From Gordius albopunctatus (taxonomy: Eukaryota), in NCBI GenBank assembly GCA_964276515.1, contig OZ193909.1:15686001-15750000 (forward strand): a stretch of DNA of 64,000 nt. Reading direction: 5' to 3'. The translations under genes and the position numbers were made by a program. Below are positions 236 to 59,100 of the stretch, piece by piece. Position 1 is the stretch's first letter. The number at the start of each line of letters is the position of its first letter. Under the pieces are notes generated by a model. The model worked only from the letters and a program-made list of their open reading frames with translations. It did no database searches and was not told where the DNA came from.

Positions 236-3200
236 CTGTATGGAGGTAGGGCAAACAGTACTTTAAAATGATATATTAGTAATCTAATAAAATTAAACTT
301 TTTTCGTCATTTAGCGGAGGAAAGCGGACGTCCCCCCTGGCTACGCCCATGTTAAGCTCCACAGATTATAAAGGGCTCCAAAACAATAAAAAAGTTTATA
401 GGGGGAGGCATTTCGTAAAAAAGTAAAGGCTCTAAACATATTCACATCCTATTCTTTTTATTATTACCACTCACCCACCGCTAAAACGACACTGTTTTCA
501 CAAGCAACACTTAGTATTTAAAGCAAAAAATATTCCTCGCTAACAACGAAACTTTCCAACTTATGAAAGCTTTTTTAAATATTCAGACACCTTATTTGTA
601 ATTTTCCCAAAATGTCCATACCAATCAAAATGGTGTTTTGGCTAAATTACCTCCAGCATGTTGTTGATTGCCGAAGTGCACCAATGAGGGCGTCATAGGG
701 GCGTGGTCGGGCGGTCCTCCTGGATGATCCGGATGCCAATTCTGAGCGGGTGCGGATTGGGGGGCCTGACCCCCACCGAAATGTTGCTGCTGAGGGTTAG
801 AATGCTGATAGTGCTGACCGCCTCCCGCGTTAAAATGAGACGGAGCCGTGGGGTGGGGCTGTGAAGGATGAAATCCCCCATTACCCAAGGGCACGCCAAA
901 CTGTGGGGGTGGAGCAACGGCTGAGGGTGGAGGGCGGGCGGATCCAGAAAGGGGCGGGCCACGCATCATCAGCATGTTAGATGGAGGTGGGTGGGGTGCG
1001 GGCGGTGGAGCAAAGTAATCAGAAGAGACCTAAAAAGGTGAAAAATAGCGTAGATGCAACGCTAAATATTGACATCTAAACTCATTAAATTATTTTGGTA
1101 AGCTTGATTTAAAAATAAGTTTGACTGAGCCTATCAATAATATATAAAAGATTTTATACTCTTCCTCAAGTTATTAAGGCCACTGCTATCTTTGTACATA
1201 TAAAAATTTTGTAATTTATATGAAATGTTGTATTGGCAATTACGTTATTTGATATAATGAAACTGGTGTTAAACAATCCAATAAATTGCTCGATAAGGTT
1301 TTAAAAGATATGAGGGCCCAATAAAATTTTAAATAAATAAAGTATATGGTGTCCTTTATAATTAAGAGAGAGGGTTATATAAAATTATTTCAAATTGATA
1401 AGAAGAATAATAAATTTTTCTTTCAAATTTTGGCAATCTTAGGATATCGTCTATTTACACTTTTCCATATAATTTAGGGTTATGAACCGCTTTTTAATTA
1501 CCTATTTTTTAGTTCTAAAAACAAAATGTTAATTTTAGTAGTTCCTCGCTTTTAAATTCAGTGTATGTAAGCTAGTATTCCCATTAAATTTATGCAAAAT
1601 ACACTTTGTATTTTATAGGTAGGGAGAATTTTGAAGGGAATGCAAAAATATAAGAGGAGAGGATCTACATAGGAACGGTAAAGGCGAGAAGCCTAAAAAA
1701 TTCAACTAGGACACACTCACCAACGACCTTTTGTGGGTATATCTTGATAAAAACTAGGCAAATAGCGAGTTATCAAGAATTCACCCTCTGTTAAAATGTG
1801 TGTAACCGAAAAAAATTAGGTAAAATTTTAAAAGAAGCACACAACCACGTCAAACATGTTTTTCGTATATTTTACTTTTTGCTGCCTTATACCGTCTCTC
1901 GCTTAATTTGAAAATTTAATATTCATATATCTCCTAGCAAGGGCGTGGCGAGCATTCGAATTAAAGGGGGCACTAATAACTTGGGGGGGGGGGGTCAAAT
2001 GATCATTTTTAAAATTTTAGCCATAATTTAGAGGGTGGCAGCCGCCCCTCCCCTAGCTACGTCAATGTCTCCAAGTATAGTGAGGAGTGCTAAGTTTGTA
2101 AAAAGCCAAAAGTTATAGCAGTTATTGGAAAAAGAGACAAAAGCCGCTAGGGCCAGTCTATCTGGTAAGTGTTAAAATTCGGGACCAGCATCTAAAAACC
2201 CTACTTGAAACATATAAAACAAAACAAATACGTTCAATCGCGACAGTTTCCTTAATTTTTGGAAATCTTAATGCACAAATCATGTCAATCTTAAAACACA
2301 CGCATACACTCAAAAAACTCAAGAAAAGTGGAATTATAGCCAAAATGGCGCGGAGAAACACAGAAATTAATGCCCATTACCTTCCCCGGTTCATACCGCC
2401 CATGCTGAGCGGCTCCGTAGATGTTATTGGGATTGTTACTGTTATTGTTGGTGCCAGAGAGGGTGTGGGTATTGAAGAGGGAAGTGTGTAGCTCCAAGGA
2501 TTGTCTCTTCTTGTAATCTTGAGGTTTATGCTCGGACATCCTAAATAGCACGGCTGCCGCGTACGTCGCTACAATTGTTTGCGTTTACAAGGAAAACATT
2601 GAAATTTAATGAAATAAATTTTATAAAAAGGGATGGGGGCTTTGTTTGGTCAACCCTAGGTTCAACTAAGACCAACGGTAGATTCTGGTATGTTTATGTT
2701 GACTAAAACCAAAAGTCGATTTACAACAGTACAATTTTCACATAATTATATAAATACATATTTTGAGGTGACATATACAAAAATGAGCAAAAACTAAGGC
2801 TGGACCATAATTAACGACGCCGGTGAGGTCGAGTTTAAATAAACTATAGCACACCTCTTCTTTAATAAGTTATCTCTCAGTATCGCTATGATTTTTACGA
2901 TTCCCTAACAATTTTGGGCCTATGATGGATTCTGCTGACAACGACAAAAATACGTCATTAAGAGAACAACTACATACATAATTTCTCCTGCCACCTCTTG
3001 TCTCATTAAATTTTGGACAACTTAGAGAGCTACTGGGCGCGCTGCCAAAACCGATAAACATGCGACCCCTCCGTATAATTACACGCCAAGCCTTTCCCTT
3101 CGCCAGCAAGAGACATTCTGCCTGCAAAATACATTTTCCAACCTAAAATATTTTCTAAGTTTTCGAACGCTCACTTTATACGTGTCAACTCTTACGTCAG

Positions 3201-6200
3201 CGTCAATCCCTTTAAATTACTGAGCATTTGAATCAAAATTATTGAGCATTAAACTTACCAACATCTTCATTGGGAGAATGCAAAAGATCGGTTAGGGGTG
3301 TGGTGGCCCCTTCTTGTTTAATCAGTTCGACAACCTCCTTTTCAGTGGCCAATTCATAAAGCAGAGCCACCGTCGATCTTTGTAAGTCCTCGATGTCCGA
3401 ATACAAGAGCTAGGCAAAACAAAATCGATCGATCGATAAAACACCAATATTTTTACATTTCACCGAGATGTATATATAGTATTGCCGCGCGACAAAAAAA
3501 TAAATACCGCAAAAAATGGTTTATGAAATATTCCGCATAAGCGAATATGCGAAGGGGTGAATAAGATAGATTGATACTTGACAGCAGTGGTAGTAGTAGA
3601 TTCTTAATTCCTAGTGTTAAAGAGAAGGGAGGGAGACCTCAAGTTTGGGGTAAGATTGTCAATGTAAATAGCTAGTATTCCCATTAAATTTATACAAAAT
3701 ACACTTTGTATTTTATGGGTAGGGAGAATTTTGAAGGGAATGCAAAAATATAAGAGGAGAGGATCTACATAGGAACGGTAAAGGCGAAAAGCCTAAAAAC
3801 TAGACAAATAGCGAGTTATCAAGAATCCACCCTCTGTTAAAATGTGTGTAACCGAAAAAAATTAGGTAAAATTTTAAAAGAAGCACACAACCACGTCAAA
3901 CATGTTTTTCGTATATTTTACTTTTTGCTGCCTTATACCGTCTCTCGCTTAATTTGAAAATTTAATATTCATATATCTCCTAGCAAGGGCGTGGCGAGCA
4001 TTCGAATTAAAGGGGCCACTAATAACTTGGGGGGGGGGGGGGTCAAATGATCATTTTTAAAATTTTAGCCATAATTTAGAGGGTGGCAGCCGCCCCTCCC
4101 CTAGCTACGTCAATGTCTCCCCCTAGAGACAAAAGCCGCTAGGGCCAGTCTATCTAGTAAGTGTTAAAATTCGGCACCCGCATCTAAAAACCCTACTTGA
4201 AACATGTAAAACAAAACAAATACGTTCAATCGCGACAGTTTCCTTAATTTTTGGAAATCTTAATGCACAAATCATGTCAATCTTAAAACACACGCATACA
4301 CTCAAAAAACTCAAGAAAAGTGGAATTATAGCCAAAATGGCGCGGAGAAATACAGAAATTAATGCTCATTACCTTCCCCGGTTCATACAGCCCATGCTCA
4401 GCGGCTCCGTAGATGTTATTGGGATTGTTACTGTTATTGTTGGTGCCAGAGAGGGTGTGGGTATTGAAGAGGGAAGTGTGTAGCTCCATGGATTGTCTCT
4501 TATGCTCGGACATCCTAAATAGCAAGGCTGCCGCGTACGTCGCTACAAGTGTTTGCGTTTACAAGGAAAACATTGAAATTTAATGAAATAAATTTTGTAA
4601 AAGGGGATGGTGGCTTTGTTTGGTCAACCCTAGGTTCAACTAAGACCAACGGTAGATTCTGGTATGTTTATGTTGACTAAAACCAAAAGTCGATTAACAA
4701 CACTACAATTTTCACATAATTATATAAATACATATTTTGAGGTGACATATACAAAAATGAGCAAAAACTAAGGCTGGACCATAATTAACGACGCCGGTGA
4801 GGTCGAGTTTAAATAAACTATAGCACACCTCTTCTTTAATAAGTTATCTCTCAGTATCGCTATGATTTTTACGATTCCCTAACAATTTTGGGCCTATGAT
4901 GGATTCTGCTGACAACGACAAAAATACGTCATTAAGAGAACAACTACATACATAATTTCTCCTGCCACCTCTTGTCTCATTAAATTTTGGACAACTTAGA
5001 GAGCTCCTGGGCGCGCTGCCAAAACCGATAAACATGCGACCCATCCGTATAATTACACGCCAAGCCTTTCCCTTCGCTAGCAATAGACATTCTGCATGCA
5101 AAATACATTTTCCAACCTAAAAGATTTCCTAAGTTTTCGAAAGCTCACTTTATACGTGTCAACTCTTACGTCAGCGTCGATCCCTTTAAATTACTGAGCA
5201 TTTGAATAAAAATTATTGAGCATTAAACTTACCAACATCTTCGTTGGGAGAATGCAAAAGATCGGTTAGGGGTGTGGTGGCCCCTTCTTGTTTAATAAGT
5301 TCGACAAACTCCTTTTGAGCGGCCAATTCACAAAGCACACCTGCCGCCACTCTTTGTAAGTCCTCGATGTCCGAATACAAGAGCTAGGCAAAATAAAATC
5401 GATCGATCGATAAAGCAACAATACTTTTACATTTCACCGAAATGTATAACTTTATTGCCGCGCGACAAAAAAATAAATACCGCAAAAAATGGTATAAGAT
5501 AGATTGATACTTGACAGCAGTGGTAGTAGTAGAGTCTTAATTCCTAGTGTTAAAGACAAGGGAGGGAGACCTCAAGTTTGGGGTAAGATTTTCAATGTAA
5601 ATAGATAGGGATAAGTTAATTTTGTCTATAATTTAAAAAGTTGTTACGATTAAAAAAACTTGTGAATACATTTTTAACAATTTTATCTACGAATTAAATC
5701 CATTAAATAAAATTTTTACCGATAAATTTAAAAGTTGAAATACGCTAAAATCGCTGTTTTTGGCAACTTTGACAGCGAATATCTAAAAAAATTGACGTAT
5801 TGGGAAAAACTAAAAACATATTTGTGTTCACAGTGAAAAACTCTACAAGAACCTGCAAACAGTTTGCCGGTTAATTTTTCTTGTTGAACCGTGTAATCAG
5901 ATTAATTCGGCTAAAACCTATTCTTTTTTGCTTGTGATTCGAAAATAAAAACTGACATAACGTTTTTATTCTTATAAGAACTCATCTGCCATGGTGTTTT
6001 TTTATCGTAAAATTTTACCTAAGCAAGGAACAAAAAAATTTAAAAAATTTTTTAAATATAATCAGTTTACAAGAAAAGGCTGATTTTTTCAAGTCCGACT
6101 GCAATTTTCAACCCAGATCTTGGCTGCCAATTAACCAAGTACTTATAACTAGGCACGAGGCATACGTTAAAAGCGGCCTTAGCACACCAGTTCAGTTGGC

Positions 6201-9200
6201 CTTTATATTTAAAAGAGTGCGTTAGAGAAAATGTGATTAAAAGAAGAAATGACAGCTTGCGGCCTGAATCAAAATATTTTGAATTTTAAGTCATCATACC
6301 TATCTATACCCTTCGGATAATTGCGAGATCCTACAACTTAGTTTTTCAAATATGGTAAGCTTGCCATTAGATCAGGTTTGAAAAAGTTAGAGTTAAATCC
6401 AAAACTATCAACATAACACATTTATTTGCAAAAGACTATATACATCTTAACGACCAATCGTCTATAAACAGGTATGGGGTAGACAAAAACCAAACAAAAT
6501 TATAAGTCCAAATCAAGCAGCGCGGCCCGCTCCAGTTTAATTTATGCCAAAACGTAACTCGACAATTAGATTTAATAATTCGTCAAGCTGAAGAACACGA
6601 GTTTATACTGGATAATTTAGGTGCAAAATCAATAAATATCGATTCCTTCTCCATGTCAATATTTACTTATCGCAAATGAAGGCCCCCAAAACTTCAAATC
6701 TCATCTATGAACCATGATGCGTTTCAAACCCGTTTTTACAACAACCAAAATGTTTAAAAAAATGTCACAAAAATATAGCCACTGAAACTCTAACATGCAG
6801 GCTAGCGATAGATGCAAGTCGCTAAATACCGACACTTTCAAACGGGATGGGGGGGCGCGTGCGAAAGTGAGTATACCGTACCTGCACGAAGATGGGTATG
6901 ATGTTGAGTTCTCGTATTAAAGCCCGATTAAAGGCATCCCTAGCCAATACGTGCATCGCATCCACGGAAGCCTCCATAATCTCGTCCATGATGAGCGGGG
7001 AATTTCGCTGTTCTTTGCCCGGTTGCTTACACTGCTGTTGCCCTGCTTGGTTGGGCAAAGATTTCTGCATACATATTTATTTTCAAAAAACATAATTTTA
7101 ATTACCAGTCCTATCCTGTTTGTCTTGTCCGCGTTAGTTTACAACACAACTTTCAATATGTGTATATTTTATCGAGAGTATGAAAGATGTAAATTCAACA
7201 TACTACACGCGAGGTCATTGCTAAAGTAAGGTTACGTTTGGATCCGTATAATGTTTGTCTTATTGACAATTTGGAATTTTCCAAAAAAAAATTTTAATCA
7301 CCCAAAGTGAGGTTTATAAAGGATTTCAACATGGCGAAAAATCTGGCATTTAAATTAACTTCGCACGAATAACTAACAACCTAAAGCCGCGACAAATCGC
7401 TTGACAGAACTTTATGCGCTTTTCAAAAAGTGTAAATATATCAAATATGTTTGGATAATTCTCGAATTTCCTATTCAAAAACGCCTAATACGTGTCTATA
7501 ATTTACGGTTTTATGAAAACCGCGTAACATTCAAAATATATACGTCACGATTCGGTAATGTAGGAAAGACATCAAAGATGGCGTCGTCCACCCTTACTCA
7601 ATATTTTAAGTTAAGGGAAGTTTACCCTGGAATAATTTTGGTTGGCACGCATCGAAATCTGAGCCATCTTGGGCAGAGTCCCTTGTTCTCGCAGGGTTGG
7701 GTGATTCGAGGGGCAGCAAGCCAAATTTCTGATAACTCTGATAACAGCCTAAACACAGCCACGAGGCAAAGCACAGAAAATTAAGGATATACATCCCGGG
7801 GTTTTTATATCGACATCAATAATTTTTGAAATTACTTTTATGAATGGCCAAGAGCTGGGCGGGTTCAAAAGTTTCACCAAAATCGGGATCCCATTATGGA
7901 TTCTAACAGCATTTTGCGCGTTCTCAGATTCCGGGTGTCGCCTAGTTAAGTGTCTCAGGGCACACACCTAGAGTAATGTATTTCATAAAAATAACTTAAT
8001 AAATTACTGATCGCTTTGTAATATTTTTTACAAAGTTAAAAGTGAAAGTTTATAGTTATATATCTAATTATAATAAAAAATCCTACAATTATATAATAAT
8101 AATATGATATAAAAAACATTATATAAGTGATATCTGCTATGTCTTCATCTTGGTCTTTTAGAAGAGGCCAGGAATCCAAAAAAGATTTGAAATTAAATTT
8201 TGCGAATAAAATTCCTACCGATTGTTTGAGTAAAAATGCGGGGGAATATTTAAAGGGAGGGGATCGCTCGCCTATTTCTATGAATAAAGCCAAGGCCTGT
8301 ATTTCATGCGCTTGAGTTTTTGGGGAAAAAACATGAAAAGAGTGGCATTTTATTACATGTTATCACACTACAATATTTTTGGTGGATGTGATAGGCATTT
8401 GCAAGTAAGGGGACGGGGTCAATATAAAACGATAAAGGGGCTAATATGCAATTTACAGAAGTTTCGGTGATTTCTTCGAGATCGGGGAAAGGGTGGACCT
8501 CTTGTAGCAAGTCCTGCACGCCCCCGCAATCGAAAACGATGGTAGTAAAAAATTCTGAAATCATGAGAATCTAGGTCTTCTTGTATTAAATTATAAAATG
8601 AGATTTTTTAACAAGAGCCCCTTGCTCAAATGGAAAGGATTCATGTCATGCCATAACTTGGTGATTCTTACGAAGTTTAAATAATATTTTTACAATAACA
8701 GCAGGCATCAGTTTGATAAATAATTTAGCGCCTTTGTTAAAATCTAGAGCAATTGTAGGCAGGGGTTTGTCCCGAACACCTGAACCCGAACCGGGTAAAA
8801 CCCGATGTTTTACTGAAGCCGAACCCATTTTTTAGAATTATCACGTCTTATATCTTAAGAAATCTAAGCCATTGTGTGTATGCACCTCCATTTATCTACT
8901 TCAGAGCAAATACCCGAATCACTATTGATATCCATCTTTACAGGCTTTTATTAATCACATTAATTAGCTAAATCTTACTAAGTGCGGACAATAAAACAAG
9001 CGTTGTACGCTTTTATGCATTCAATGTTTTTATACACTTTAAGTCTGTAAGTAAGCCACACGCATATAGCAGACTTTGGATGCCCAAGGACCGCAACACC
9101 GCAGATCCAGGAGACATCTCTTTCGAGCTCCCAAGTTTAGAGAACATCGAGGAGGAAATAGACTTAGGCTTCTGGGAAAGCGAAAATATTAGCATAAGCG

Positions 9201-12200
9201 AAGGGGAAAACGAACCAAATCCCTAGACACGTGACCGTGCCACTATATAAACGCTTCCAAGGATCACACCGTCATTCGCTAATTTTTCTCACTCACACTA
9301 ATTGTTCCCACGTTTATACGCTTTCTGCCCCCTTTTACTTTTCGTTACATTTTTACCCTAAAATTTAAGTTCACCCTTTCTCAGTAAATGACAAAAGGGA
9401 GAAATGTAACCCAGGGAGAGCCACCAATAGCCAGTCCTCCGTTGAGCCCTGTTAGACCAGGGGTTCCCGGTGCGGGCCTAACGGAGCTGATTACACAACT
9501 CGTGGAATTTCAAAGGGAACAAACCAGAAACAACGCCGAAGCGGCGCGAGCAAATCAAAGGCAGATCGATGCCATGAGAGAGATGCTGGAGAACTCTCTC
9601 TCAGTGGTGGGCTCCTTAGCGAGACAGGAGCCCACCCCAACGCTGCCAGCACCGTTGCAAATGCCGTCAACGGTGCAAATCGTGCCAGCCCCAGAACAGC
9701 CTAAAACGCCGGCAGCCATTTGCGAGGACATCGCCAAGCATACTCAGGGGCTTAGTGAATTACTTACAGACCCGGACCTTAAAGTCCAGAAAAGGGACCG
9801 GCACGAGGCTAAGTATGCGATCCTCATGTCTCAAGTTTGCACACCATTATCCCCTCTGGAGGTCCTAACAGCGCACGACAAGCAATTAAAAACACTATGC
9901 CTAGCGATCAAATTCAATTGGGCTACAGCCATCCGGCACGATACCACTTGGTTATCAGATATGGGCTTCCAAAACGTGGAAGTAGCAGTTCCTAAATAGC
10001 CAAAGAAATCGTTTTTTCCGAGCGCTGGCAGGGGCCAAGGCAGCAAGCCGGGCCGACACTTCAAGAAGAACGCGGCCCCTGCCCCGCGTTCGTAAACTTC
10101 TGAAGCAAACGGTAAACAAGTGGGAGTACGGGCCTTCGGGCGTACCGACTCTCACTGGGGACGAAAGCCACAAGGCTCCTGACTGGTGGAGGAAGATCAA
10201 GGACTTCCTCAAGGAGACACGTCGTCAGCTTTTTTCCCCTGCACCGAACAACCATAACCATAACCAAAACCACCCCACCACCGCCAGAGGTAGAGGAACG
10301 CATCAACCCTACTGAAGAACCCACGGAAGGTGACGAGAGCAGCATAAAACGCTCTTTAAATGGGGGAAAACCAGCACTACCCAGAAACCCACGGGAAAGC
10401 TGGACATCAGAACGTCCCGACTCAAACCACACCCATTGATGTCGGAATTCACACTCAAAGTGGCGTTCGAAGTGTTCAAACCTCCACTGGACCTCCCCAA
10501 AATACGGCAGAATGGCGGCTTATTCAAGCCAGACAGATGGAGGCGCACATCAAAAGGGTCGCCAAGCTACTTTACGACTTTGAAAGAAGAGTCCGTTGTT
10601 TCCGAGACGCAAGCGCTCGCGGTCACGTCCTCCACCTTCTTCATAGCTAAGAGCAATGGGGATGCCCGAATAATCACCGATCTATCTGAAGCATCAAAGA
10701 ACTTCAGACATCTTCCGGTCAAACTGGCAACAATCCCATTGACGTCTAAATCTCTGGCAAAAGCAAACTACGCCGCAAAAATTGACCTCAAAGCGGCTTT
10801 TTCAGCATCCCGCTATATAACAACTACAAAAAATACTGCGGATTCAAATGGAGAGGGAAGCTGTTTCAATACAACGTCTTACCAATGGGAGCTTCCTTCA
10901 GTCCGTACGTATTACAAACCATTGTGGCAGACCTCGTAAAAGCCTCGGTCAAGCACTGCCACTACAACGTCTACTTAGACGATATCCTCATCTTCGCACA
11001 AGACGAGGACGACGTAGCAACCGATCTGGGAGAAATAGCAGAGATGGCCAAGGAATGGGGGCTAACGATCAATACGGCAAAATCCTCCATTATGCCTGAA
11101 AGGGAACTCAGCTACCTGGGGTTATTGCTCAACTTCGAAACACACACGATCAGCTGCTCGGTAGAAACGAAAGCAAGGCTTAATTACGCAGCCGACCTCC
11201 TCTACCTGTACCTGTCAACAAACGTCCCCCAGCTGACTACACCATGTTAGAAGCCTTGGGGGTAATGAATTATTTTTTCTACAATCTCACGGGAATGTCG
11301 AAGCTCCTCACGGCCTTCTACGCGGTGTCAACAGGGAAAGGCACTGCACACGACAGACCATTAGCACGAGGCAAGCTCGCTGGATGCCTAGCACTGCTCG
11401 AAACAACCATCCCAATACACGAGGACCATGACACAACAATCTATGCTGACGCATCCGATACACATATCGGAATATCATGGGAAAACATCAAGTTCTCGGT
11501 CTCGTTCGAACAAGCAGCAGACGTGATAGGCTTGGATTGGGTAAACACAAACCACATCACTGCAGCAGAAACATTAGCAGCTATTTACGCGTACCTGGTA
11601 GCCACCCAAAACGGGGCCCGATATCCAAAGGTGGTCACGGTCTCCACCACAGCCTACTACGTGCTTAGGAAGGGAGGGTCCAACTCCCCGGTGGTAGAAA
11701 AGATAATAGCCAGCTTCGTAGCAACACACAGCATCTCACACAAGGGCGTAGCCAGGATTTGCTAGAGGGGGGGGGGTTTAAAATTTTTGAAGCCATATTT
11801 TTTTTTGGAAGTAATTTTATTTTCGACATATATTATTGAAAGTAAAGTAAAAATACAACAAAAATAAATTATAATATAACAAAATATTTAAAAACTATAA
11901 ACAATTAATATCGACGTTTTTTAGATAAAAATGCATTAATAATATCTTCTGTTTTGGGGGTATATTGTCTATGTAGATTTAACAAGGTTAATCCAGTAAG
12001 CCTAAATTAAAAATTAGTAAAACCATTTAATTTACCTTTCTTGTCCCATTGTGTTCCTGAGGTAAGCTTTTAGTCTTTTTAAAGCTGAAAAAATCTCTCA
12101 TTAGAGCATGTTGTAACGGGGAGTGTGGCTAAAATATGGTATAATGTTTTTATATTTGGATGTAATTTTAATTTGGACGCATGATTGGTTAATGTTTCCA

Positions 12201-15200
12201 ATGCATTGGTAGGCAAATTCTCTAATTCACAGTCCTTGAACGACTGATACCACAATTTAATATTCGATTTGAATTGTTCTTGAGAGCCGTCAAGATCTTC
12301 TTCATAAAAATTTGCCAATTGAAGAAAGTTATTTAATATCTCTGTTGAGAGCATGACAGGGGACTTAATTAGAAGGGAATCAAATCATAACAGTATTTGC
12401 TTATTTTTTAGAAACCTTTCATCAAGTTCCACCAAAACCGCATATAAAAAGGAGTTATACAACAAAACTCTGTAATAAGTTTCTGGACAAGATTTTCAAT
12501 GTTTGAACGAAGAGTTTGTCGTGAGGCTCTCCTAGGAATAGTAATTTTTAAATCATATATATCTCCTAGTGACAAGACATTATTGTAGATTGTTCTAAAT
12601 TCTTCTTGGGAATTTTCCCGCAAATGTTGAATCTGTATAAACGCATTTTCGGCTGCATTTATGGCCTGAGGTCTATATTAATCCTTTGCAAATAATTGCT
12701 AAGATTAATAGTGTAAGAAAAAATTTGATTTAGCATGTACAAAGACAGCCAAAAGTTGGATGTCCTTAATGATGAAAGCAAAATCGCCGCATTGGACGAT
12801 GATTCTTCATCGTCCCATTCACACATCTCCTCCAAGGTAGCAAATATTGCTTCTTTCGCTTCACAGAATCTTTGAACAGAATTGTGCTTTTGTGTCCATC
12901 TAGTTTCACAGTGATATTAATTTTGTGAATTTAGGGTTATCCGACAATGACAATACTTCAGAAGTGAAAAGATTAAATCTTTTGGGGGTTGATATAAAAT
13001 CAGTGATTTTTTTGACAAAACTATTTGTATCTTTCTCCTCAGAAATGCAAATGTTACTCTTTTTAGGGAAGTATGTATAAATGGAATATCGCTTCATAAT
13101 AAGGCGCGGAACTTAAATTTACAAATAAGATCAGTTTGGAAGCTTTTAATCAAAAATACAAATTCCGAAATTCAAAATTTATTAACTTGTCGACTTAATT
13201 TTTTAACATATATATATATAAATATAAACGCAGCACTTGACACTAGCTAAATTAATTATAATCATGATTATCGATAATTTTGTGTTGTGTTTTGAAAAAA
13301 AATAATATCCAGGAGGAGGGGGGGGGGTCAAACCCGAAACCCCCCCCCCCCTTCCCTACGCGCTTGATCTCACACCTCCTAAAGATCCACTTCAACCTAG
13401 AATGGATCTCAACCACAATCTAATAAAGAATACTCTGAGATTAAGCATCTTTATTTTTGATTGTTTAATATTATTTGCACAGGCTCTTAAAGCTATGCAT
13501 ACATTATTGATATTAGGTTAATAGCAATATTAGTTAGATACTGCCAGATATTTTACCAATTTACTTGGTTATTTGTGGATTATACCATTTTAACATAGTA
13601 AATAATAATACTCTTTTAAAATAAACTATAAAAAATTAAAAATAAGCTAGATTTTGTTAAATTTCTACAAAATACAACCTTTAAATTTATAAATACTTTA
13701 CTGGATTAAATAGCAGCGGGACCTAAATTTTAAAAACAGCTGAATAGAATCCATCCATATGAGGGCAGGGTTTGTTATGTCAATCAAGTGTATTTATTGC
13801 GAAGCCAGTTTGCTATTTATTTTATTTTTGCAAATGTTATATATGTAATATCCAAACTTTTATCAAATAATAATGGGCACTTGTATTTCTTGCTTATCCA
13901 GTTCAGAGAAGGGTGGTCATAGCTATAAAAGTTTTAATCTAACTAAGCAATTGACCTTCAAATAACATATTAAATTTATCTTAAAATGTTTAACTTTTTG
14001 TTTTATTTATTTAGCTGAAAATCTCAAGAGCGATTCTACTCGTTCTGAAGCAGACAAAGAGATTATTAATGGTGATTCTAATCTTTTAAGGGTTAGTATT
14101 CCAAAAATTCAATTGACATCCCCTGGGCTTACAAACATGACCTTAGATATGAACCATCTGGAGGAAAGTGAACTCATTTTAGAGAGTAAATACTCTTATT
14201 TTGCTCTCTAATTTCCTCATCTCGACAAAGTGGCATTGGTAAGAATATTTTTGGTATTAATAATTTTTGCCTATGCCATTTTAAATTTTTGTTATTGTAA
14301 AAATATTATTTAAACTTCGTAAAAATCACCAAGTTATAGCATGCATCCTTTTCATTTGAGCAAAGGGCTGTTGTTAAAAAATCTCTTTTTATAATTTAAT
14401 ACAATATGGACCTAGATCCTAATCTAATTTTTTTTCTTAAAATTTTACAATATTTTTTATGTCCTAAAGTATCTTATATACCTTTAAGATCTAAAATGGA
14501 TGAACATATAATATGTAATTAATGCACATCTCATCATCGGACAAAAGTCCATTGTCTTGGATAGCTTTATAGTCGTAATTTGTCGTCAAAAATTTGCCAA
14601 AACAAATTTTAATCTTTGTCAGTATTAAATTTTTTCCTTTTTGATTTCAGCCTCTACCCTCACCAACTGAAAACCTTTTGGGACAAACCCCTGGTTCAAA
14701 CCCCTGATTAACATTGCAAATTAAGCATTATATGAAAACTTTAACTTCATTCTATAAAAGATACTAAAAATGGTTTTTAGTATTACTTTAAAATAGTTAT
14801 AATTTTCAGTGACAAAATTAAAATTTTAAAAGAGTCAAGTTTATTTACTAGATAATTTTTCAAATTGCCCACTGCATGTTTCAATATCTGGCTAGGCTCA
14901 GAAGGTCTTTTAACAGCAGTAGATTCTTCCATATCAAATTGTGTTGACGTTATTTCAACCCCTTCATCCATAGTTTCTGGAAACATGGCTGCTCTTATGC
15001 ATCGACAACAATTTTGATTTAAAACATGATTTATATCTAAAATATCATATATTTATGTGATAAACAATAAATTTAAAAATGAATCCAATTTGTAATTTTA
15101 AAACACTATTAGGATGGAAAAAATTAACACACCAACCATAGCCCTAATTTAAATCAGATGCCTCAAATTATAAAGTCTTAATATCTGTTGAAGTTTAATA

Positions 15201-21750: not shown

Positions 21751-23032
21751 TTCATTTCGTTGATTAGGGCGGCATCTAATAAGTCATAAAAGAAATTTAT
21801 GAGCAGGAAACTTAGTTACAAATGGTAAAAAAAATTTCATTTCCTTGTCATGTGTCAATAAGAAATCAATTTAAATTCCATGAGAATTTATTTTGTACTT
21901 TATCATAAAATATGTTTCTAAAATTCACCCCCCCCCCCTTTAAATCCAAAAATGTGTTGAAATTTATTAAAAGTACGGCAGGCCGAAAATTTCTGCAACA
22001 TTAAGAACCTTTTCTAGTTAAAAAAGATATTTGTTTCGATAAAGAGTTTTTGGACAATTTTGTTAATTATCACATAATTAACTAATTTATTTGGGCACAT
22101 TGAGTATTTATACAACTTGCAATCTTCCTTTAAATCTGCAGGCACTTAGAAATAGTATTTTAAGCGATCTTAAACTTTTATAATTTAAGCACTTACCACC
22201 CCACTACCCTTTGGTATTGTATCTGGATTGCTAGGAAAGAGATGGGTTTAACTAATATTATCGATAAAAATCGATTAGTCGAATCAATAAATATTATGCG
22301 ATTAGATGGTTTTGAAATCGAATTTATGGGGGAGGGAGAGGGGAAGTGTATTTAAAATGTTTTAATTAAATGCTATGCAATTTACGGGGGATAAATTTTC
22401 CCAGAAAAATGTCCAGTAGCAAATAATATTATTATTAATGGCATTTACTTATATATAGTTATTTGACTATAATTTCAAATATGACCCATTTTACATTTGT
22501 TGTAAAGTTCCTATATTTCATACATGGGTATAGCCAAGGGGTGCAAAGAGGGGCGGTTGCTTTCCTCTAAATCCAAAAGTTTGCTAAAATTCCAAAAAAT
22601 GATCATTTTGCCCTTCCCTAAATCATTATTGCCCCCCTTTAATTACAATGCTGGGTAGGCCCATAATGTTGTAATGAATGAAAAATCTGGTATTTTAATT
22701 GAAATATATTATAATGAATTCTTTTTCCCTTACTATTGTATGTTTGTAAATGTATACTTATTAAACACTTAAATTATCTCGTAACCAAAATTAAAGTTTT
22801 GTATTTTTATTTTACTTACAGTATAGGTTCAATCAATCAACATTTCAAATTTTAACTTTAAAATAGTACAAAGTTTAGGGCTTAAATATAATAGTAAAAT
22901 TTATGATATTTTTGTTTGCTGATTTTAATTATACAATATACTAATTCAAATGCTGCCTACGCCCATGAAACCTTCTAAGGACCTATATAAATTACAATTA
23001 ATTTCCGAAAATATTATGTTTAATTCTGCTAT

Positions 23033-27050: not shown

Positions 27051-29003
27051 TTAGCATTTGGAAAGATAGCATAAAATACTTAGCACAAATTAAAATACTT
27101 AGCCAATTACTTAGCAATTTGTAATTTTTTACTTAGATAACACCCTTTTAAATATACCTAAATCATTATTTTGGGTTGACAGATCCTCCTCATCAGATGA
27201 TTCACTTAAATTTGAATCTTCACTATGTGCATTCCTTCTTTTTATAATACCACGACGATGAAAATAATAATGATAAAATAATAACAAGCGATTGCCAACT
27301 CACGCGGTGGCCATTAAAATCGCTTGATCAAAACAGGGTAATAAAATCTATTTCTATCCCAGTGATAAACGGAACGCATATAAGATATATGTGCGTGTGT
27401 GTGGGTAATAAAAACTTCAAGTAGTAAGTGTGGGGGGAATAAAAACTTTAAGTACACTACCGTGGTAACATTCATGACTCATCGTAAAAATAATAAAATA
27501 CGTGTGTAAAATTACACCGAACACCACAATGGCCATACTCGTTTGCATTTGTAAAGCCTCAATTTGACCCTATATTATTACATTTTGTTTTACAATTCCC
27601 CCGCATAATCCCTAAAACGCAGAATTTCGAAACTACGTTTTTCCGCCAATTTCAACATATGGAAAATTTGGAAAACTCTTTAACTATTGCAAATCAAGAT
27701 AACAAAGAGAATATAAGTAAGCTTTATTATGCAAGTATACACATATTGTTATAGGTTTTAAAAAATCTAATAGAAAAAATCGTATTTGCTCAAGTGATCT
27801 AATGCTCAAGTAATCTAAAATTTGCAAAGAATGCTTATAACTAATTAATTTTGTATTTAATCATGTTAAAAACGCTTTAAAAGGTTGCAAAAACATATAT
27901 TAAGCATATAATATATGAATATTAACTTTTTTATTGCTGCATATATATCTTTCATATTAAGCATATAATATATGAAGTTCAAATTTTTTATTATTTTCTT
28001 TCATAGGTTAGATTAAATGCTTTATAATATGTTAATATGCATTTACAATACTTTATAGGGTTAGGGTTAGAGATGTACTTATCTAATGATGTTTAAATTA
28101 CAATTTTTGTGCATTAGATTACTTGAGCATTAGACCGGTTGAGTATAAATCTAAAAAATGATATGGTCACTTTCAAAAAGTTTGGAGCAGGTAAATGGGA
28201 CAAGTATACTATAAGTGCAGGCACTACAGTATATGTAAATGCCCAGGAAGAGCTGTCCTTAGATATAATAATTTTATGATAACATCTGAACATTCCCAAA
28301 ATTGTATACAAAAACAAAATCTCCAAAGTAAGAAACTTAAAAGCTTTTTAATATAAATTTAGCTTGGAATGAAAAAACAACAAGTGTTATGGTTATAGAA
28401 AATATCTCTACACCCATAGAAAATCAAGAAAGTAAGATATGTCTATAATTTTTTGAGGTTTTTTAAAGATTCTAGTCAAGGTGCAATTTTATTAAACTCA
28501 GTGGATGATATAATACCAAGTAATGTCACATGATTGATTATCATAGACATTAACTGTTAGTTACTATTAACTATTAAATTTATTGTAAATAGATTCTAAC
28601 AATAATGATGCGTAGATACATGACCAAACATGAATTAAGTATCAAATCTAAGAAACAGATCATGAAAGAAAGAAATTATCCTGTGATAAAATTATAGTTC
28701 TAATTAAGTCTATATACATAAGCTAAATATATATTTAATATAATAGTTTTCTAAGCTTATTAGCTTTATAAAGTTTTTCAATAATCTAACAGAATTTACA
28801 TTAACTCTTTTTAAGTTACTAATGTTTTAAACCTTTATCTTATACTCCAGAAACTAAAGTTAGTAATGAAATTAAAATTTTTAGATACTATATGTAATTA
28901 TATAAAAATATCAATTGAATTGATATATTTTAGCAAGGCTCTGTATAATGTTCAAAGTGTAAATGATTCACAATATGCGGATAAGAAAAAATATCAACAT
29001 TAT

Positions 29004-32000
29004 TATAGTATTTATTGATAACACATGTAAAATCACAACAACTATTATATATATACACTAGGAATACAATATCATCAATAACACTATATTACAATACTCC
29101 CCCATAAGATTAATATTCATCGTCGAATCTTTTTGGTGGTTGTCTACGTCGTTGGGGTCTCGGCACATTGTCTTGTTTAAATCCTGCAATTGGTTCCTCT
29201 TCCTCGGCCCCTATTGATTCCTTTAGGTTGTCTATGGCTTTCCGTAAGTGATCTGTGTGTTTACGCTTAATCCGTCCTTCGGCCCAAACATCGTAGGACC
29301 AATCATTCTTCTTACGTTCAATTATTCCCTCGTGCCAACCCTTTTCTTTTTCATTTTTTACCCATACTTTATCCCCTTCCTGAAAATTACGGTCGGAAAC
29401 CTTCCTATCATGATAGTACTTTTGTTTCCAAACATTGTCGATAGTCGTTTCCTTGATCGAACGTCGCAGTTGGTCAAAAGAAGATCGGATTCTTCTTTTA
29501 AACATTAATTCACAAGGAGCTACACTTGTAGTATTATGAGGTGTCAATCTGTAAGCCATGAGTACCTGAGCCAAAAGTTTATCATCGTCTTGATTATACC
29601 TAGCGGCTGCGTAAAACCGTGATTTTAGTGTCCGAATAAATCTTTCACACAATCCGTTAGATTTTGGGTGATATGGAGATGTCCGAATATGTCTAAAACC
29701 ATTAGCTTTTATAAATATTGCGAATTCCTCTCCCAAGAATTGACTACCGTTATCGCTTACTAAAACTCTTGGTAGTCCCAATCGAGCAAACCATTCGCGC
29801 AACGCCTTGATAATTCCGGTAGAGTGTAAGGAATTTATGATTTTTACTTCTGGCCATTTTGAATAACCATCAACTAAAACCAACCAATATTTGCCGTTTA
29901 TGGGTCCTGCCAAATCAATGTGGACGCGATCCATTGGTTCTTCTGTTGTAGGCCATTGATATAAGGGAGATTCTAACATATTAGATCGATTTTCTTGACA
30001 ACCTTTACATCTTTGGACAAAAATTCCAATGTCATCATTGATTTTAGGCCACCAACAATAAAATTTTGCTAAATCAATCATTCCAGATATTCCCGGGTGT
30101 CCGGTATGTAAATTTTCTAACACCACCATGTTCAACTTCCCTGGAACTATTAACCGATTTTGCCAATATATTAATTCGTTTTGAATAGATAACTCATCTT
30201 TCTTCGGATAAAATGATCTTCGAATGGTTGCATCGTTGATAGGTTTGCTCCAATTACAGCGAATCAAATCACTAACATCATTCAACCTTCTATCTTTCCT
30301 TGTTTCCTCCACTAACGTTTTTCTGGAAAACTTTAAATCTTCAATCATGTTTATATGGATGTCTTCATTACTCTCTGCAAAGGTAGGTAGTCGAGATAAT
30401 GTATCTGCGATTTGATTAGTCTTTCCAGAAATATACTCAATTTTAAAGTCATAAGCCATTAATTTAGTATTCCATCTTTGTAATCGTAAGTTGCAATTAT
30501 AATGGTGTCCCTCTCGACCAAAAATGTATTGTAACGGTCGATGATCTGTTTTTAATGTGAATGTTCTCCCATAAATGTATTGGTGAAATTTATTGACAGC
30601 GTAAATAATACCCAGAGCTTCCTTGTCAATAGTGGAATATCCCTTTTCTGCTTGACTTAAAACCCTTGATGTATAGGCAATAGGCCTTTCTTGTCCATCC
30701 GACTCCACGTGCATTAACACCGCTCCCAATCCTGCTTCACAAGCGTCCGTATACAGAACTAACGGCTTCCGTAACGAATATGGAACAACGGTATCTTCAC
30801 TAGATATTAAGTTTTTCAATTTGTCAAAACAATCTTCTTCCTCTTTCCCCCATTCCCATTTGGCCTCTTTTTTTAAAAGGTTGTGTAATGGTACACATTG
30901 TGGTTGTAACATAGGTATAAATTTGCCTAAATATGTTAATAGTCCTAAAAATCCTTTAAGTTCAGATTTATTTGTGGGTCTTTTACAATTCCTTAAAGCT
31001 AAAATTTTTTCCTCCGTAGGTTGAATACCTTTAGAACTAATCTTGTGGCCCAAATAAACAACCCAGTCTTGCAGATATTTTATTTTGTCTGGTGTTGTGG
31101 TAATTCCTACCTCTCCAAACCGTTTTAATACTTCTTTAATATTTGAAATATGTTGTTCATCATTAAGTCCCGTAATGATAATATCATCAATAAATACCGC
31201 TGTATTTGGAATTCCAGCTAACAGATTAGTGATATACCTTTGAAAAATCAATGGAGCCACCTTTATTCCGAATGGCAGCCTACGATAACGGAATAATCCT
31301 ACGTGTGTAGAAATGGTAAGTAGTTTTGCGCTTTGCTCAGACATTCTTAATTGTAAGAAAGCGTCTCGCAAATCGATACATGTGAATTTATCGCCCCCGA
31401 GGAGCTTGGATGTTACATCCTCAAAGGTAGGCAGGGTATCCCCAATATCGCATAGGTAATCATTTAACGTGGCCTTAAAGTCCCCGCATATTCTAATGGA
31501 TTTGTTTTTCTTAAATCGATTGACAGTAGGGGTACACCATGGAATTTCAGTGTTAAGTTCGACTTTTTCTATTACTTGCTCTTCCAAAAGTCTTTTAATC
31601 TCAGATTCGATGGCCTCCCTCATCGGAAAAGGTACCCTTCTTGGTGGCAAACTTATAGGCTTATAGGGGGTTTTTAAATGCAAATTTACCATAAAATTGT
31701 TAACTTCACCTAATTTCTCTGAAAACACTTTAGGAAACTGCTCGATCAAATTTTCTAATTTAAGCTGTCTAATTACAATGTTTTTAGGTAATTCAAATCC
31801 AAATTCTAAAATTTCTGGTAATCCCAATATTAAATCCCCTTCATTAACTACTAACAAAGGAATTTCTAACCATTTATTGTTAATTTGAGCTTTTGCTAAA
31901 CACTTGCCCAAAGTTTTGACCCTAAAGTTCCCATAACTCAATATACTTGGGCAATTCCTTAACTCAGGTTTACCAATTTCCATCCAAGTCTGCTTATCTA

Positions 32001-32900
32001 TGACAGTAGCCTGAGCTGCAGTGTCAAACTCGAAATTATAATTTTTATCATTTAATACCACTTTAACCAATGCTTTATTAGTTTTATACACCTTAACACA
32101 ATTAATATTATTATTATACTTTTTGAATTGATAATGATTATTATTTTTATTAAAATAACAAAATCTAGCTAAATGGCCTTTCTTTTTGCAATTAAAGCAT
32201 ACTAGGTCAGCATAGTTGTTTTTATTATTATCATGAACTTTTGTAATTTTATTAATTTCTTCATGTGTTATATCTCTATCTTTATCTACCACTTCATTTG
32301 AGGCTCTCTCAAAGCTAAGTGCCAATTCAAATACAGTTTTAAATTTTAACTTTTCATTTCCATCTTTACCATCAGGAAATCTTATTCTTATTTCATTTTC
32401 TAATCTACTATTATTTAACCCTAACAAAAACCCATCCCTTAACATCTCATCTTCTTCCTTATACTCACACAAGATAACCAAGGACTTTAATTTTTGTGAG
32501 AAATCTTCAACTGACTCATTTTTCCTCCTAGCCCTTAAGAATTGTAATCTATAAAAAAAAATCGAGTTTTTACTTCCAAATAACAAAAGTAATTCTTTTT
32601 TTAAATCTTCATAAGTGCTATCCTCTATTTTTTTTAGGGTAAATTTTATATTTTAACCTTTTCAAATTCGGAAGTCCAAGGAATGTGATGAGATATTTTT
32701 TTTTGTTCGCAAGCGTAACTCCTTTGATATCCATGGCACTTTCTAGTACCATTATCCAGTCCTCTATTTCCATTAGGTCGGAGAATTCTTCTATTTTGAC
32801 CTGCGCCATTTATAGTATTTATTGATAACACATGTAAAATCACAACAACTATTATATATATACACTAGGAATACAATATCATCAATAACACTATATTACA
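29004..32900 (-). mobile_element. Full-length Ty3/Gypsy (Mag-like) LTR retrotransposon, 3897 bp
   Basis: Identical 90-bp LTRs (29004-29093, 32811-32900), 5-bp TSD ATTAT, PBS TGGCGCAG, PPT gggggagt, and gag-pol. Confidence 0.97.
29110..32809 (-). CDS. Gag-Pol polyprotein (CCHC knuckle, protease, RT, RNase H, integrase)
   Basis: CFNCKKKGHLARFC; FDTAA; FIDDIII; TDAC...DKE...TDH; H-H-C-C and D,D35E integrase. One extra A in an A8 run near 32630 separates ORF 32618-32809 from the 1158-aa ORF. Confidence 0.95.
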
Positions 32901-33256
32901 ATTATAAAAATAATTTTTAAAATAATGATTCCAACAACTTCAACTAATGATTTCATATTTTCTAATCTTGAAATAATTAATTTTCCTTAGTTAATGTGTA
33001 ACATATTAGCATCATTTATTTCTTGAAGGGCTAACAAGTTATCAATAATTTTCTCTTAATACAACAATTTATATGATTATTATATAAGGTTACTTGTGAG
33101 ATGTCATTCAGTGGTTGAAACTTTGTTATAGCTAAGGTTGACAATGCTAATAAATTAATTAATCCATGTCTAAAAATTATACTTTTATGTGGTATAATAA
33201 GATGGGGCTCAAATTTAATAAACTTTAAAATGTAACCAATTGAAAAATATCGAATT

Positions 33257-54598: not shown

Positions 54599-54769
54599 AA
54601 GGGTCAACCATACTTAGGTAAACCCTGCAAAAAATAAAATATTTACAAGAACTTTTTTAATGTCAAATATATTCCATACGTATTAATTTAAACTTAATAC
54701 CTTAAATGTAAATCATGAAAATTAAAATACACAATAATTTTGGTTTTTCCGCATCACTAATTCCACTCA

Positions 54770-56177: not shown

Positions 56178-59100
56178 ATGAATTGTATAAATAATTTGAA
56201 TTTCCAAAATCAATCCATGAAGCAAGCATCATATATGGATATTGATAAAGGTCTTCCTATGCAAATTAGAAAAGAGCAAACCTTACAATGGCAGCAAAGT
56301 CATTATCATGGAGATTCTGGAATTCAGACTAAAATGAATACAAGGGTATATATTTTCAAGTTTTTTGCTCCATGTTCTAAGTTTATTTTATTTATGTTCC
56401 TTAACTTTTAATGTATCTTTATTTTTTTATTAGGCCCCTTCTATTTCTGGCCTCACTCATATGGATGATGGCATACAACATGATCATGTTCAACAACCCT
56501 ATAATAATTATGGAATGAATATGGGTGGGAATATTGGGCAAAACTTTGATTGGGGACAAGGTAAATTTTTCTAAGCCCTATTTTTAGAAAAAAATTTATA
56601 TTTGTAGGACATTTTTAAGTTAATTACTTTATAAAAATTGACTTGCTTTAAAATCTATATTGAGCCAATCAAAATAAAATAATGATTAAACTTCAACAGA
56701 GATTAAGACTTTATAATTTGAGACATCTGATTTAAAATAGGACTATGGTTGGTGTGTTAATTTTTTCCATCCTAATAGTGTTTTAAAATTACAAATTGGA
56801 TTCATTTTTAAATTTATTGTTTAATCACATAAATATATGATATTTTAGATATAAATCATGTTTTGAATCAAAATCGTTGTCAATGCATAAGAGCAGCCAT
56901 GTTTCAAGAAACTATGGATGAAGGGGTTGAAATAACATCAACACAATCTGATATGGAAGAACCTACGGCTGTTAAAAGACCTTCTGAGCCTAGCCAGATA
57001 TTGAAACATGCAGTGGGCAATTTGAAAAATTATCTAGTAAATAAACTTGACTCTTTTAAAATTTTAATTTTGTCACTGAAAATTATAACTATTTTAAAGT
57101 AATACTAAAAACCATTTTTAGTATCTTTTATAGAATGAAGTTAAAGTTTTCATATAATGCTTAATTTGCAATGTTAATCAGGGGTTTGTCCTGAAAGGTT
57201 TTTAGTTGGTGTGACATAACAAATTGAGATAATTTGCATACCCTGCCCTCATATGGATGGATTCTATTCAGCTGTCTTTAAAATTTAGGTCCCGCTGCTA
57301 TTTAATCCAGTAAAGTATTTATAAATTTAAAGGTTGTATTTTGTAGCAATTTAACAAAATCTACCTTTTTTTAATTTTTTATAGTTTATTTTAAAAGAGT
57401 ATTATTATTTACTATGTTAAAATGGTATAATCACAAATATCCATGTAAATTGGTAAAATATCTGGCAGTATCTAACTAATATTGCTATTAACCTAATACC
57501 AATAATGTATGCATAGCTTTAAGAGTTTGTGCAAATAATATTAAACAATCAAAAATAAAGATGCTTAATCTCAGAGTATTCTTTATTAGTCTTAATCAAT
57601 CAAAGAAGTCTCTTTATGCTATATGCGTGTGGCTTACTTACAGACTTAAAGTGTATAAAAACATTGAATGTATAAAAGCGCACAACGATCTATAATTAAC
57701 AGCTTTCTACTAAGCTTACAATTTTTAAATCTTACATTTTCGGTTTACAAACAAAGTGTTATTGTAGTTATCTCCCCAAAATGTGTGTAACGAATCAGAG
57801 AAAAACGTATTATTCCATTTAAAATGAAATTACAAGGAAAAGGACATAATTGAACTAGTTCATCACAAATATATTATTTAAAATAAATTTATAAGCCGAG
57901 TTTATTGTTTGTATATGCATCAACAATTTGACGTGCATTGTCTTCGCTGTGTTAATCATGCAGGCATACAGTACCCGCGCATTTTTGATTTTAAAAACAC
58001 AAAAAAACTTGCTTGTTTTATTGTCAGCACTTAGTAAGATTTAGTTAATTAATGTAATTTATAAAAGCCTGTAAAGATGGATATCAATAGTGATTCGGGT
58101 ATTTGCTCTGAAGTAGATAAATGGAGGTGCATACACACAATGGCTTAGATTTCTTAGATATAAGACATGATAATTCTAAAAAATGGGTTCGGGTTCTATA
58201 AAACATCGGGTTTTACCCGGTTCGGGACAAACCCTTGCCTACAATTGTTTAGATTTCTAACAAAGACACTAAATTATTTATCAAACTGATGATTGCTGTT
58301 ATTGTAAAAATATTATTTAAACTTCGTAAGAATCACCAAGTTATAGCATTACATGAATCCTTTCCATTTGAGCAAGGGGCTTGTGTTAAAAAATCTCATT
58401 TTATAATTTAATACAAGAAGACCTAGATTCTAATGATTTCAGAATTATTTACTACCATCGTTTTCAATTGCGGGGGCGTGCAGGCCCGATCGCGAAGAAA
58501 TCACCGAAACCGCTGTTTATCGTTTTATATTGACCCCGTCCCCTTACTTGCAAATGCCTATCACATCCACCAAAAATATTGTAGTGTAATAACATGTAAT
58601 AAAATGCCACTCTTTTCATGTTTTTTCCCCAAAAACTCAAGCGCATGAAATACAGGCCTTGGCTTTATTCATAGAAATAGGCGAGCGATCCCCTCCCTTT
58701 AAATATTCCCCCGCATTTTTACTCAAACAATCGGTAGGAAATTTATTCGCAAAATTTAATTTCAAATCTTTTTTAGATTCCTGGCCTCTTCTAAAAGACC
58801 AAGATGAAGACATAGCAGATATCACTTATATAATGTTTTTTATATCATATTATTATTATATAATTGTAGGATTTTTTATTATAATTAGATATATAACTAT
58901 AAACTTTCATTTTTAACTTTGTAAAAAATATTACAAAGCGATCAGTAATTTATTAAGTTATTTTTATTAAATACATTTCTCTAGGTGTGTGCCCTGAGAC
59001 ACTTAACTACCCGACACCCGGAATCTGAGAAGGCGCAAAATGCTGTTAGAATCCATAATGGGATCCCGATTTTGGTGAAACATTTGAACCCGCCCAGCTC

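What the first reader, a model, noticed from the sequence alone, without database searches (positions are those of the whole stretch)
9068..13419. Genome-length, circularly permuted integration of a ~2.7-kb integrase-less reverse-transcribing element (pararetrovirus-like circle)
Seen: after removing the hAT (8-bp TSD), Pol reads ...[21 protein letters not shown] and stops at the right junction (13419). The left junction (9068) begins SRLWMPKDR...[11 protein letters not shown]...ENEPNP*. In relative 2 these pieces are contiguous (NIQ*IPTSENPADYPSRTWIPPER...EEEDDLYDW...ENEGAERS*). So the two ends join inside the last RNase H motif, with only about 7 codons missing. The paralogous intron in copy B is an empty site: 27 host bp are replaced and there is no TSD. 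The reconstructed unit is about 2.73 kb: TATA, leader, ORF1, RT-RNase H. I see no integrase, tyrosine recombinase, protease, LTR or ITR, and there is little room for one. Established: hepadnaviruses, nackednaviruses and caulimoviruses replicate as integrase-less circles and become endogenous through repair; DIRS-group elements normally encode a tyrosine recombinase and terminal repeats. Inference: this is an episomal circular retroelement or virus of an invertebrate, captured at a double-strand break.
Basis: partly seen in the sequence, partly recalled or inferred. Interest (0 to 1): 0.95.

Follow-up and report, generated by a model that had tools for sequence, protein, structure and literature searches.

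The report
Integrase-less hepadnavirus-like circle fossil
An animal genome carries many broken copies of a 2.7-kb reverse-transcribing element whose polymerase groups with hepatitis B-type viruses; it has no detectable integration enzyme and its copies are cut at different points of one circular map, so it likely replicated as a free DNA circle and was likely pasted into chromosomes by DNA repair.

Summary
Observation confirmed and strengthened. Copy A (9072-13419, interrupted by a hAT with an 8-bp TSD) sits in a beta-catenin paralogue; the other paralogue is empty, with 27 bp replaced and no TSD. Contigs from two public runs show three other, diverged copies running straight across the point where copy A is cut. 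Two of them fix the gap at 23 nt, so the unit is 2,737 bp: promoter, leader, ORF1, RT-RNase H with an acidic tail. Relative 2 is cut elsewhere, at the ORF1 start. Pfam finds only RT in 12 frames. The only close relatives are 10 Gordionus (hairworm) proteins. RT+RNase H trees place the family with hepadnaviruses (99/97; AU against DIRS-type p=0.03), but RT alone does not reject DIRS, and named HEART, VIPER and nackednavirus sequences were not in the trees. No terminal protein, core homology, epsilon or free circle was shown. Best reading (0.6): a new HEART-like lineage that replicates as an integrase-less circle and is endogenised by repair. The HEART mobilisation mechanism is described as unresolved, so this makes it testable.

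The parts
9072..9226 (+). Displaced 3' end of Pol (end of last RNase H motif, acidic tail, stop at 9224-9226); left end of copy A
   Evidence: crossed by other copies
9228..9251 (+). Predicted promoter: CACGTG box (9228-9233) and TATATAAA (9244-9251)
   Evidence: sequence; both motifs recur in a loose-end stretch from diverged copies (table 7); TATAAAA in relative 2 at 20377; function untested
9252..9387 (+). Pyrimidine-rich leader; no significant epsilon-like fold
   Evidence: z +0.56 to -1.54
9388..10095 (+). ORF1: coiled coil plus predicted helical bundle, then a basic tail after a stop at 9997-9999; likely the RNA-packaging protein
   Evidence: (28% identical to relative 2 ORF1); no homologue found
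10096..10390 (+). About 100 codons of unassigned coding-like sequence upstream of the recognisable RT; no terminal-protein match
10391..11740 (+). Pol: RT (YLDD) and RNase H, broken by frameshifts
   Evidence: Pfam RVT_1 7e-22; aligns with Gordionus proteins at 31-44%
11741..13366 (-). Secondary hAT DNA transposon insertion, 8-bp TSD 11733-11740 / 13367-13374
   Evidence: hAT-free copies seen
13375..13419 (+). Continuation of RNase H up to the right junction
18795..20650 (+). Relative 2: ORF1 (probable ATG 18829) fused by a ~1-kb deletion to RT-RNase H, then Pol tail, TATA, leader; cut near the ORF1 start, a second permutation
   Evidence: (423 of 757 nt identical over RT-RNase H); ends approximate
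20654..20776 (+). Three tandem hairpins at the right end of relative 2; not known whether part of the element
   Evidence: fold z -6.75, 0 of 200 shuffles as stable; no Rfam match; single copy in window
57590..57616 (-). Empty site in paralogous beta-catenin copy B: the 27 bp lost in copy A

Best explanation
This is a chromosomal fossil of a 2,737-bp ORF1 + RT-RNase H element that lacks a detectable integrase or recombinase and likely replicated as a free, hepadnavirus-like DNA circle, with near-unit-length copies likely captured at chromosome breaks by end-joining repair. Shown: gene content, unit length, a closed circular map, two different cut points, a deletion junction without TSD, many rearranged copies. 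Inferred: the promoter behind the Pol stop drives an over-length RNA from the circle; ORF1 packages it; Pol reverse-transcribes it and RNase H removes the RNA; the product recircularises; broken or linear by-products are ligated into double-strand breaks, as reported for HBV. The primer is unknown, since no terminal protein was found. It is best called a new HEART-like lineage shared with the hairworm Gordionus.
For: Three diverged copies cross copy A's break (one is a 1,537-nt contig with 130 differences over 674 nt). Relative 2 is a different permutation. 27-bp loss and no TSD. Only RVT_1 (and a weak RdRP_1) scores well in 12 frames at E up to 1. No terminal repeats and no place where many molecules begin or end, whereas the hAT end shows up at once with 16-21 contigs. 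Of 42 joints, the 15 shown are 10 deletions, 2 inversions, 2 go-backs and 1 diverged stretch. RT+RNase H: family + P0107 + 9 hepadnaviruses 99/97; mixture model 98/95; AU p=0.029 against grouping with DIRS-type rows. The final RNase H motif has the NPADxPSR spacing found in 13 of 17 hepadnavirus loci (3 more NPADGPTR pattern), and no methyltransferase follows it. HBV integrates by MMEJ/NHEJ (PMC12719184, passages).
Against: No free circle seen: junction contigs have depth 141-180 (X1) and 613-636 (X2), against 166-203 and 390-484 for copy A's own contigs. No match to terminal-protein or core profiles built from 10 hepadnaviruses each. RT alone gives only 94/85 and does not reject DIRS (p=0.129). 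Long-branch warnings. Atlas nearest clusters are Euglenozoa RT-RNase H proteins (0.97), ahead of hepadnavirus P (0.94). The Foldseek ranking does not favour hepadnaviruses (HBV P rank 7). The NPAD..SR spacing also occurs in P0099, which lies among DIRS-type rows. Summed depth is 2-3 times higher over 9184-9551, which could reflect a terminal repeat. Both runs come from one study and may include the window's source.
Confidence: 0.6

Rival explanations
1. It is a VIPER/TATE- or Ngaro-like tyrosine-recombinase retrotransposon lineage that lost its recombinase gene. It still makes circular cDNA, but is inserted by a helper recombinase or by repair and never leaves the cell.
For: Nearest Atlas clusters are Euglenozoa RT-RNase H proteins. 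VIPER-like RNase H groups with hepadnaviruses (PMC6681497, passages). YLDD rather than YMDD. The stretch upstream of RT looks DIRS-like by eye (recalled), with no terminal protein. RT alone does not reject DIRS.
Against: No recombinase, ITR or split direct repeat in either copy. The two copies are cut at different places, not at one recombination site. None of the 9 Gordionus hits carries a recombinase or methyltransferase domain. RT+RNase H rejects grouping with the DIRS-type rows at hand. An automated survey found DIRS only in Mermis among the species studied (10.1101/2024.06.11.598342, passage).
Confidence: 0.2
2. The family is linear, with long terminal direct repeats or tandem copies that include the Pol 3' end and promoter. 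Copy A is a later deletion that removed one repeat, the TSD and 27 host bp, and only mimics a permuted circle.
For: A deletion would also explain the lost 27 bp and missing TSD. Higher summed depth over 9184-9551. Internal deletions are common in the family. The junction contigs are short (332-1,537 nt) and could come from tandem units.
Against: Copy A's two ends would have to fall within 23 nt of each other on the map by chance, inside a catalytic motif. Relative 2 shows a second near-unit-length cut elsewhere.
Confidence: 0.15
3. The arrangement is an assembly artefact or a chance local rearrangement.
For: The window is rich in duplications and repeats.
Against: Short-read contigs bridge the left hAT junction (11453-11769) and contain the right flank; the empty paralogue defines both junctions; other copies cross the break.
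Confidence: 0.03

Closest known systems
HEART (hepadnavirus-like retroelements; Gong & Han 2018, not held, known here through citing papers)
   Same: Endogenous invertebrate RT elements on the hepadnavirus side of the tree. By eye, the RT shares the 'P(F/K)xLxxLP' stretch with the Ixodes HEART rows (PMC12691608 data set S6).
   Different: The Ixodes rows read YIDN/HLDN and LPFG where this family has YLDD and LPMG. The alignment seen holds only Ixodes HEART rows and no Gordion/Nematomorph row (S4 search). HEART mobilisation is called unresolved (PMC12440569); here a complete unit and permuted ends are seen.
Blubervirales: hepadnaviruses, nackednaviruses, proto-nackednaviruses
   Same: Small circular map (2.74 kb; nackednaviruses 2.7-3.1 kb, PMC11551314), one structural-type ORF before Pol, RT-RNase H ending in NPADxPSR, no integrase or protease, promoter behind the Pol end, repair-type integration.
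   Different: No detectable terminal protein, core motifs, DR1/DR2 or epsilon; YLDD; no envelope; branches outside hepadnaviruses + P0107.
Tyrosine-recombinase retrotransposons (DIRS, PAT, Ngaro, VIPER/TATE)
   Same: ORF1 + RT-RNase H without protease; related RT; circular intermediates (recalled).
   Different: No recombinase, no methyltransferase, no ITR or split direct repeats, no fixed ends.
Endogenous caulimovirids
   Same: Integrase-less circles endogenised in rearranged, permuted form (recalled).
   Different: No protease or movement protein, much smaller, RT on a different branch.

Membership tests
Blubervirales (hepadna/nackedna/proto-nackednavirus) | RT-RNase H groups with hepadnaviruses | tested here: met
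   99/97 and 98/95, AU p=0.029; weaker for RT alone; nackedna and proto-nackedna rows absent
Blubervirales (hepadna/nackedna/proto-nackednavirus) | Terminal protein domain at the Pol N-terminus | tested here: not met
   Profile from 10 hepadnaviruses: best E 0.75 over all frames and Gordionus proteins; no PF00242; only about 100 codons of room. A very diverged short domain is not excluded.
Blubervirales (hepadna/nackedna/proto-nackednavirus) | Core/capsid protein | tested here: inconclusive
   ORF1: no hit to a core profile; model pLDDT 54; only generic helical bundles, best Z 8.9
Blubervirales (hepadna/nackedna/proto-nackednavirus) | Circular genome of about 3 kb | tested here: inconclusive
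   The map closes at 2,737 bp, but only chromosomal-depth contigs were seen
Blubervirales (hepadna/nackedna/proto-nackednavirus) | DR1/DR2 and epsilon stem-loop | tested here: inconclusive
   No exact direct repeat over 11 nt in copy A; leader folds not significant; the copy is degraded
HEART | Phylogenetic clustering with named HEART sequences | not tested
   Named HEART rows were seen only in a paper supplement and compared by eye; 'HEART-like' for P0107 and P0152 is my label (P0152 hits PF00336 above cut-off)
DIRS/PAT/Ngaro/VIPER | Tyrosine recombinase ORF | tested here: not met
   No recombinase family in 12 frames; no room in 2,737 bp
DIRS/PAT/Ngaro/VIPER | ITRs or split direct repeats | tested here: not met
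   copy A and relative 2
DIRS/PAT/Ngaro/VIPER | RT-RNase H nested among these elements | tested here: inconclusive
   Rejected for the unnamed DIRS-type rows at hand; VIPER/TATE and named Ngaro not sampled; Atlas points to Euglenozoa clusters
LTR retrotransposons / Ortervirales | Protease, integrase, LTRs, TSD | tested here: not met
   the gypsy elements in the same window do score for these domains

The most novel reading that the evidence does not exclude
A previously undescribed invertebrate pararetrovirus-like lineage at the root of the hepadnavirus branch: a 2.7-kb circle with its own capsid-type ORF1 and a polymerase without terminal protein, i.e. the stage between recombinase retrotransposons and hepatitis B-type viruses, which has invaded the germ lines of this animal and of hairworms many times.
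Probability: 0.35. Interest if true: 0.92.

Novelty: new variant of a known kind. Interest (0 to 1): 0.78.

Why it matters
Hepadnaviruses are proposed to descend from invertebrate HEART retroelements (PMC12691608), yet how HEART elements move is described as unresolved (PMC12440569). This family supplies a complete unit, its gene content and permuted integration junctions, which point to integrase-free circular replication without a recognisable terminal protein. That makes the order of events testable: circle first, protein priming and core later. It would also extend the group to Nematomorpha. Searches for hepadnavirus + Nematomorpha and Blubervirales + endogenous + invertebrate + circular genome + reverse transcriptase found 0 papers in the held library; searches listed none describing this family.

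Tried and rejected
No whole genome is held, so breakpoints could not be mapped genome-wide. Word-indexed protein search with relative 2 RT-RNase H: 0 of 737 candidates. ORF1: 0 of 2,658 candidates, Atlas best 0.84, no match to P0107, fold search generic; the ORF1 search against viral structures could not be run. IMG/VR scan with the RT: none. Metagenome scan: 1 of 506 stretches, L020, an ordinary gypsy element whose 2,721-bp length is a coincidence. No RNA holder listed. Rfam: nothing in relative 2, only G/C-run noise in the hAT end. Foldseek on the Gordionus Pol model does not discriminate between RT groups. Earlier scan findings: none. Tree rows dropped: 18 of 70 short or redundant rows; rows without a clean RNase H, and P0129; L010, mis-cut, and 9 more for the mixture run. 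A 6-nt match between the insert's left end and the lost host bases is visible, but its shuffle test did not run. Gong & Han 2018 could not be read. bioRxiv supplements were not seen, and 6 of the 10 supplementary files of PMC12691608 and their sequences were not examined; they may bear on novelty.
Full report
Setting. The window is AT-rich animal DNA with two inverted, partly decayed copies of a beta-catenin gene and several gypsy and DNA transposons. No whole genome is held, and the host was not identified.

Observation. Self-comparison shows copy A 9001-9071 and 13420-13784 matching copy B on either side of 27 bp (57590-57616) that copy A lacks; there is no TSD. The 4.35-kb insert holds a hAT element (11741-13366) with an 8-bp TSD. 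The rest reads: Pol tail and stop (9072-9226), CACGTG and TATA boxes, a pyrimidine-rich leader, ORF1 (9388-10095, with an internal stop), about 100 unassigned codons, and RT-RNase H broken by frameshifts, running out at 13419. Relative 2 (about 18795-20650) carries the two Pol pieces contiguously; the tails are homologous (z 6.2).

Is the permutation real? Two public runs of one study hold the stretch (shares 0.76 and 0.67). Their contigs show a joint from 13419 back to 9072 with 23 letters between. Laid on the element alone at 80% likeness, three different records cross copy A's break: 11630->9072 (a deleted copy, about 90% alike), 11736->9075 (a 1,537-nt contig, 130 differences over 674 nt, no hAT) and 11726->9140 (one run). 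The 75 letters in the second equal 4+45+23+3, so the unit is 2,669+45+23 = 2,737 bp. Every point of that map is therefore contiguous in at least one natural copy. These contigs have about the depth of copy A's own contigs, so they look like other chromosomal copies, not an amplified episome; the tool warns that depth is no copy number. Of 42 joints, the 15 shown are 10 deletions, 2 inversions, 2 go-backs and 1 diverged stretch. No place has many molecules beginning or ending, and the 12 loose ends shown (of 477) are mostly diverged element sequence, whereas the hAT terminus stood out. Relative 2 starts just before its probable ORF1 ATG (18829) and ends after its own promoter and leader, a second cut point; its ends are approximate. 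Against this reading: summed depth is 2-3 times higher over 9184-9551, which a terminal repeat would also give, and only two copies have both ends mapped.

Gene content. Twelve frames of both copies, stops read as X, hit only RVT_1 strongly. There are no LTRs, ITRs or split repeats. ORF1 is 28% identical between the copies but has no homologue. Its model is poor (pLDDT 54) and matches only generic bundles. Profiles of terminal protein and core from 10 hepadnaviruses each find nothing.

Relatives. Among 1.84 billion representatives, 2 of 91 hits stand far above the rest (1e-24, 1e-23); both are Gordionus (Nematomorpha) proteins. An alignment search gave 41 hits, 9 from Gordionus on five long contigs. 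Those that reach the end of RNase H stop 11-90 residues after an NPADxPSR-type motif, with no methyltransferase, like copy A and relative 2 and unlike most DIRS-type hits. IMG/VR and JGI scans found no family member.

Phylogeny. References were hepadnavirus loci fetched and proteins; group labels are mine, from domains and motifs. RT alone (52 of 70 rows): the family is one clade (100/99) and joins hepadnaviruses, P0107 and P0152 at 94/85; grouping with DIRS-type rows is not rejected (p=0.129). RT+RNase H (34 rows): 99/97; under a mixture model (24 rows) 98/95, and grouping with DIRS-type rows is rejected at p=0.029 (33 rows). Long-branch warnings apply, and named HEART, VIPER/TATE, Ngaro, nackednavirus and proto-nackednavirus rows are missing. 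The Atlas puts Euglenozoa RT-RNase H clusters nearest (0.97) and hepadnavirus P at 0.94; VIPER-like RNase H is reported to group with hepadnaviruses (PMC6681497). Foldseek does not discriminate.

Mechanism. Shown: a closed 2,737-bp map, two cut points, a small host deletion without TSD, no integration enzyme detected, many rearranged copies, and later hAT insertion. Inferred by analogy with hepadnaviruses: a nuclear circle is transcribed from the promoter behind the Pol stop into an over-length RNA, ORF1 packages it, Pol copies it, and broken or linear products are end-joined into chromosome breaks, as reported for HBV (PMC12719184). How priming works is open. Whether the circle ever left the cell is untested. 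I put this at 0.6, a recombinase-less VIPER/DIRS derivative at 0.2, and a terminally repeated or tandem linear element at 0.15.

Literature seen. PMC12691608: parts 1-2 of 3 of the text, data set S6 parts 4-5 and a search, a search of S4, S7 cut. PMC11551314: part 1 of 2. Passages only: PMC12440569, PMC6282271, PMC12241316, 10.1101/829473, 10.1101/2024.06.11.598342, PMC7955980, PMC6681497, PMC12719184. Gong & Han 2018 was not held, so what it says about HEART structure is unknown to me and could lower the novelty. Searches found 0 papers; searches listed none describing this family.

Verdict. A real feature. It works like a pararetrovirus on present evidence, but it is not a member of Blubervirales as defined, because the terminal protein test failed and the core test was inconclusive. 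It is a new variant of hepadnavirus-related retroelements, shared with a hairworm, that bears directly on the open question of how such elements move. Interest 0.78.

Noticed in passing
window 20654-20776: Three tandem hairpins (z -6.75) at the right end of relative 2, with no Rfam match and one copy in the window; could be an element RNA signal, a fold-back repair insertion or an unrelated small element.
   Followed up: partly
window 57492-57692 (and the flanks of copy A): The insertion site resembles, by eye and from recall, a decayed beta-catenin armadillo-repeat exon rather than an intron; phmmer and Pfam gave no support.
   Followed up: partly
window 1570-18491 and 54743-64000: Two inverted, partly duplicated and apparently decayed beta-catenin paralogues, 88-97% identical, with further internal duplications.
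   Followed up: partly
window 19320-19345: A deletion of about 1 kb in relative 2 fuses ORF1 in frame to the RT YLDD region, leaving a 421-codon open frame.
   Followed up: no
window 29003-32902: Gypsy element with an open 1,180-aa gag-pol and identical 93-bp terminal repeats, so probably recent; more decayed gypsy elements at 38-40 kb and 45.5-48.3 kb, and a piggyBac-like piece at 26.5-27 kb.
   Followed up: no
window 10012-10195 and 10564-10655: Depth peaks across family copies, and several deletions end near 10024-10110 and 10595, as if short cis-acting stretches were kept in deleted derivatives; may be a contig-overlap artefact.
   Followed up: no
proteins P0107, P0129, P0152 (unnamed ENA/Logan records): Other RT-RNase H proteins that end right after an NPAD motif; P0152 passes the Pfam cut-off for the hepadnaviral polymerase C-terminal domain, and P0107 branches next to hepadnaviruses.
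   Followed up: partly
window 21341-21753, 33435-35869, 51668-52827: Dispersed arrays of a 95-130-bp satellite-like repeat.
   Followed up: no
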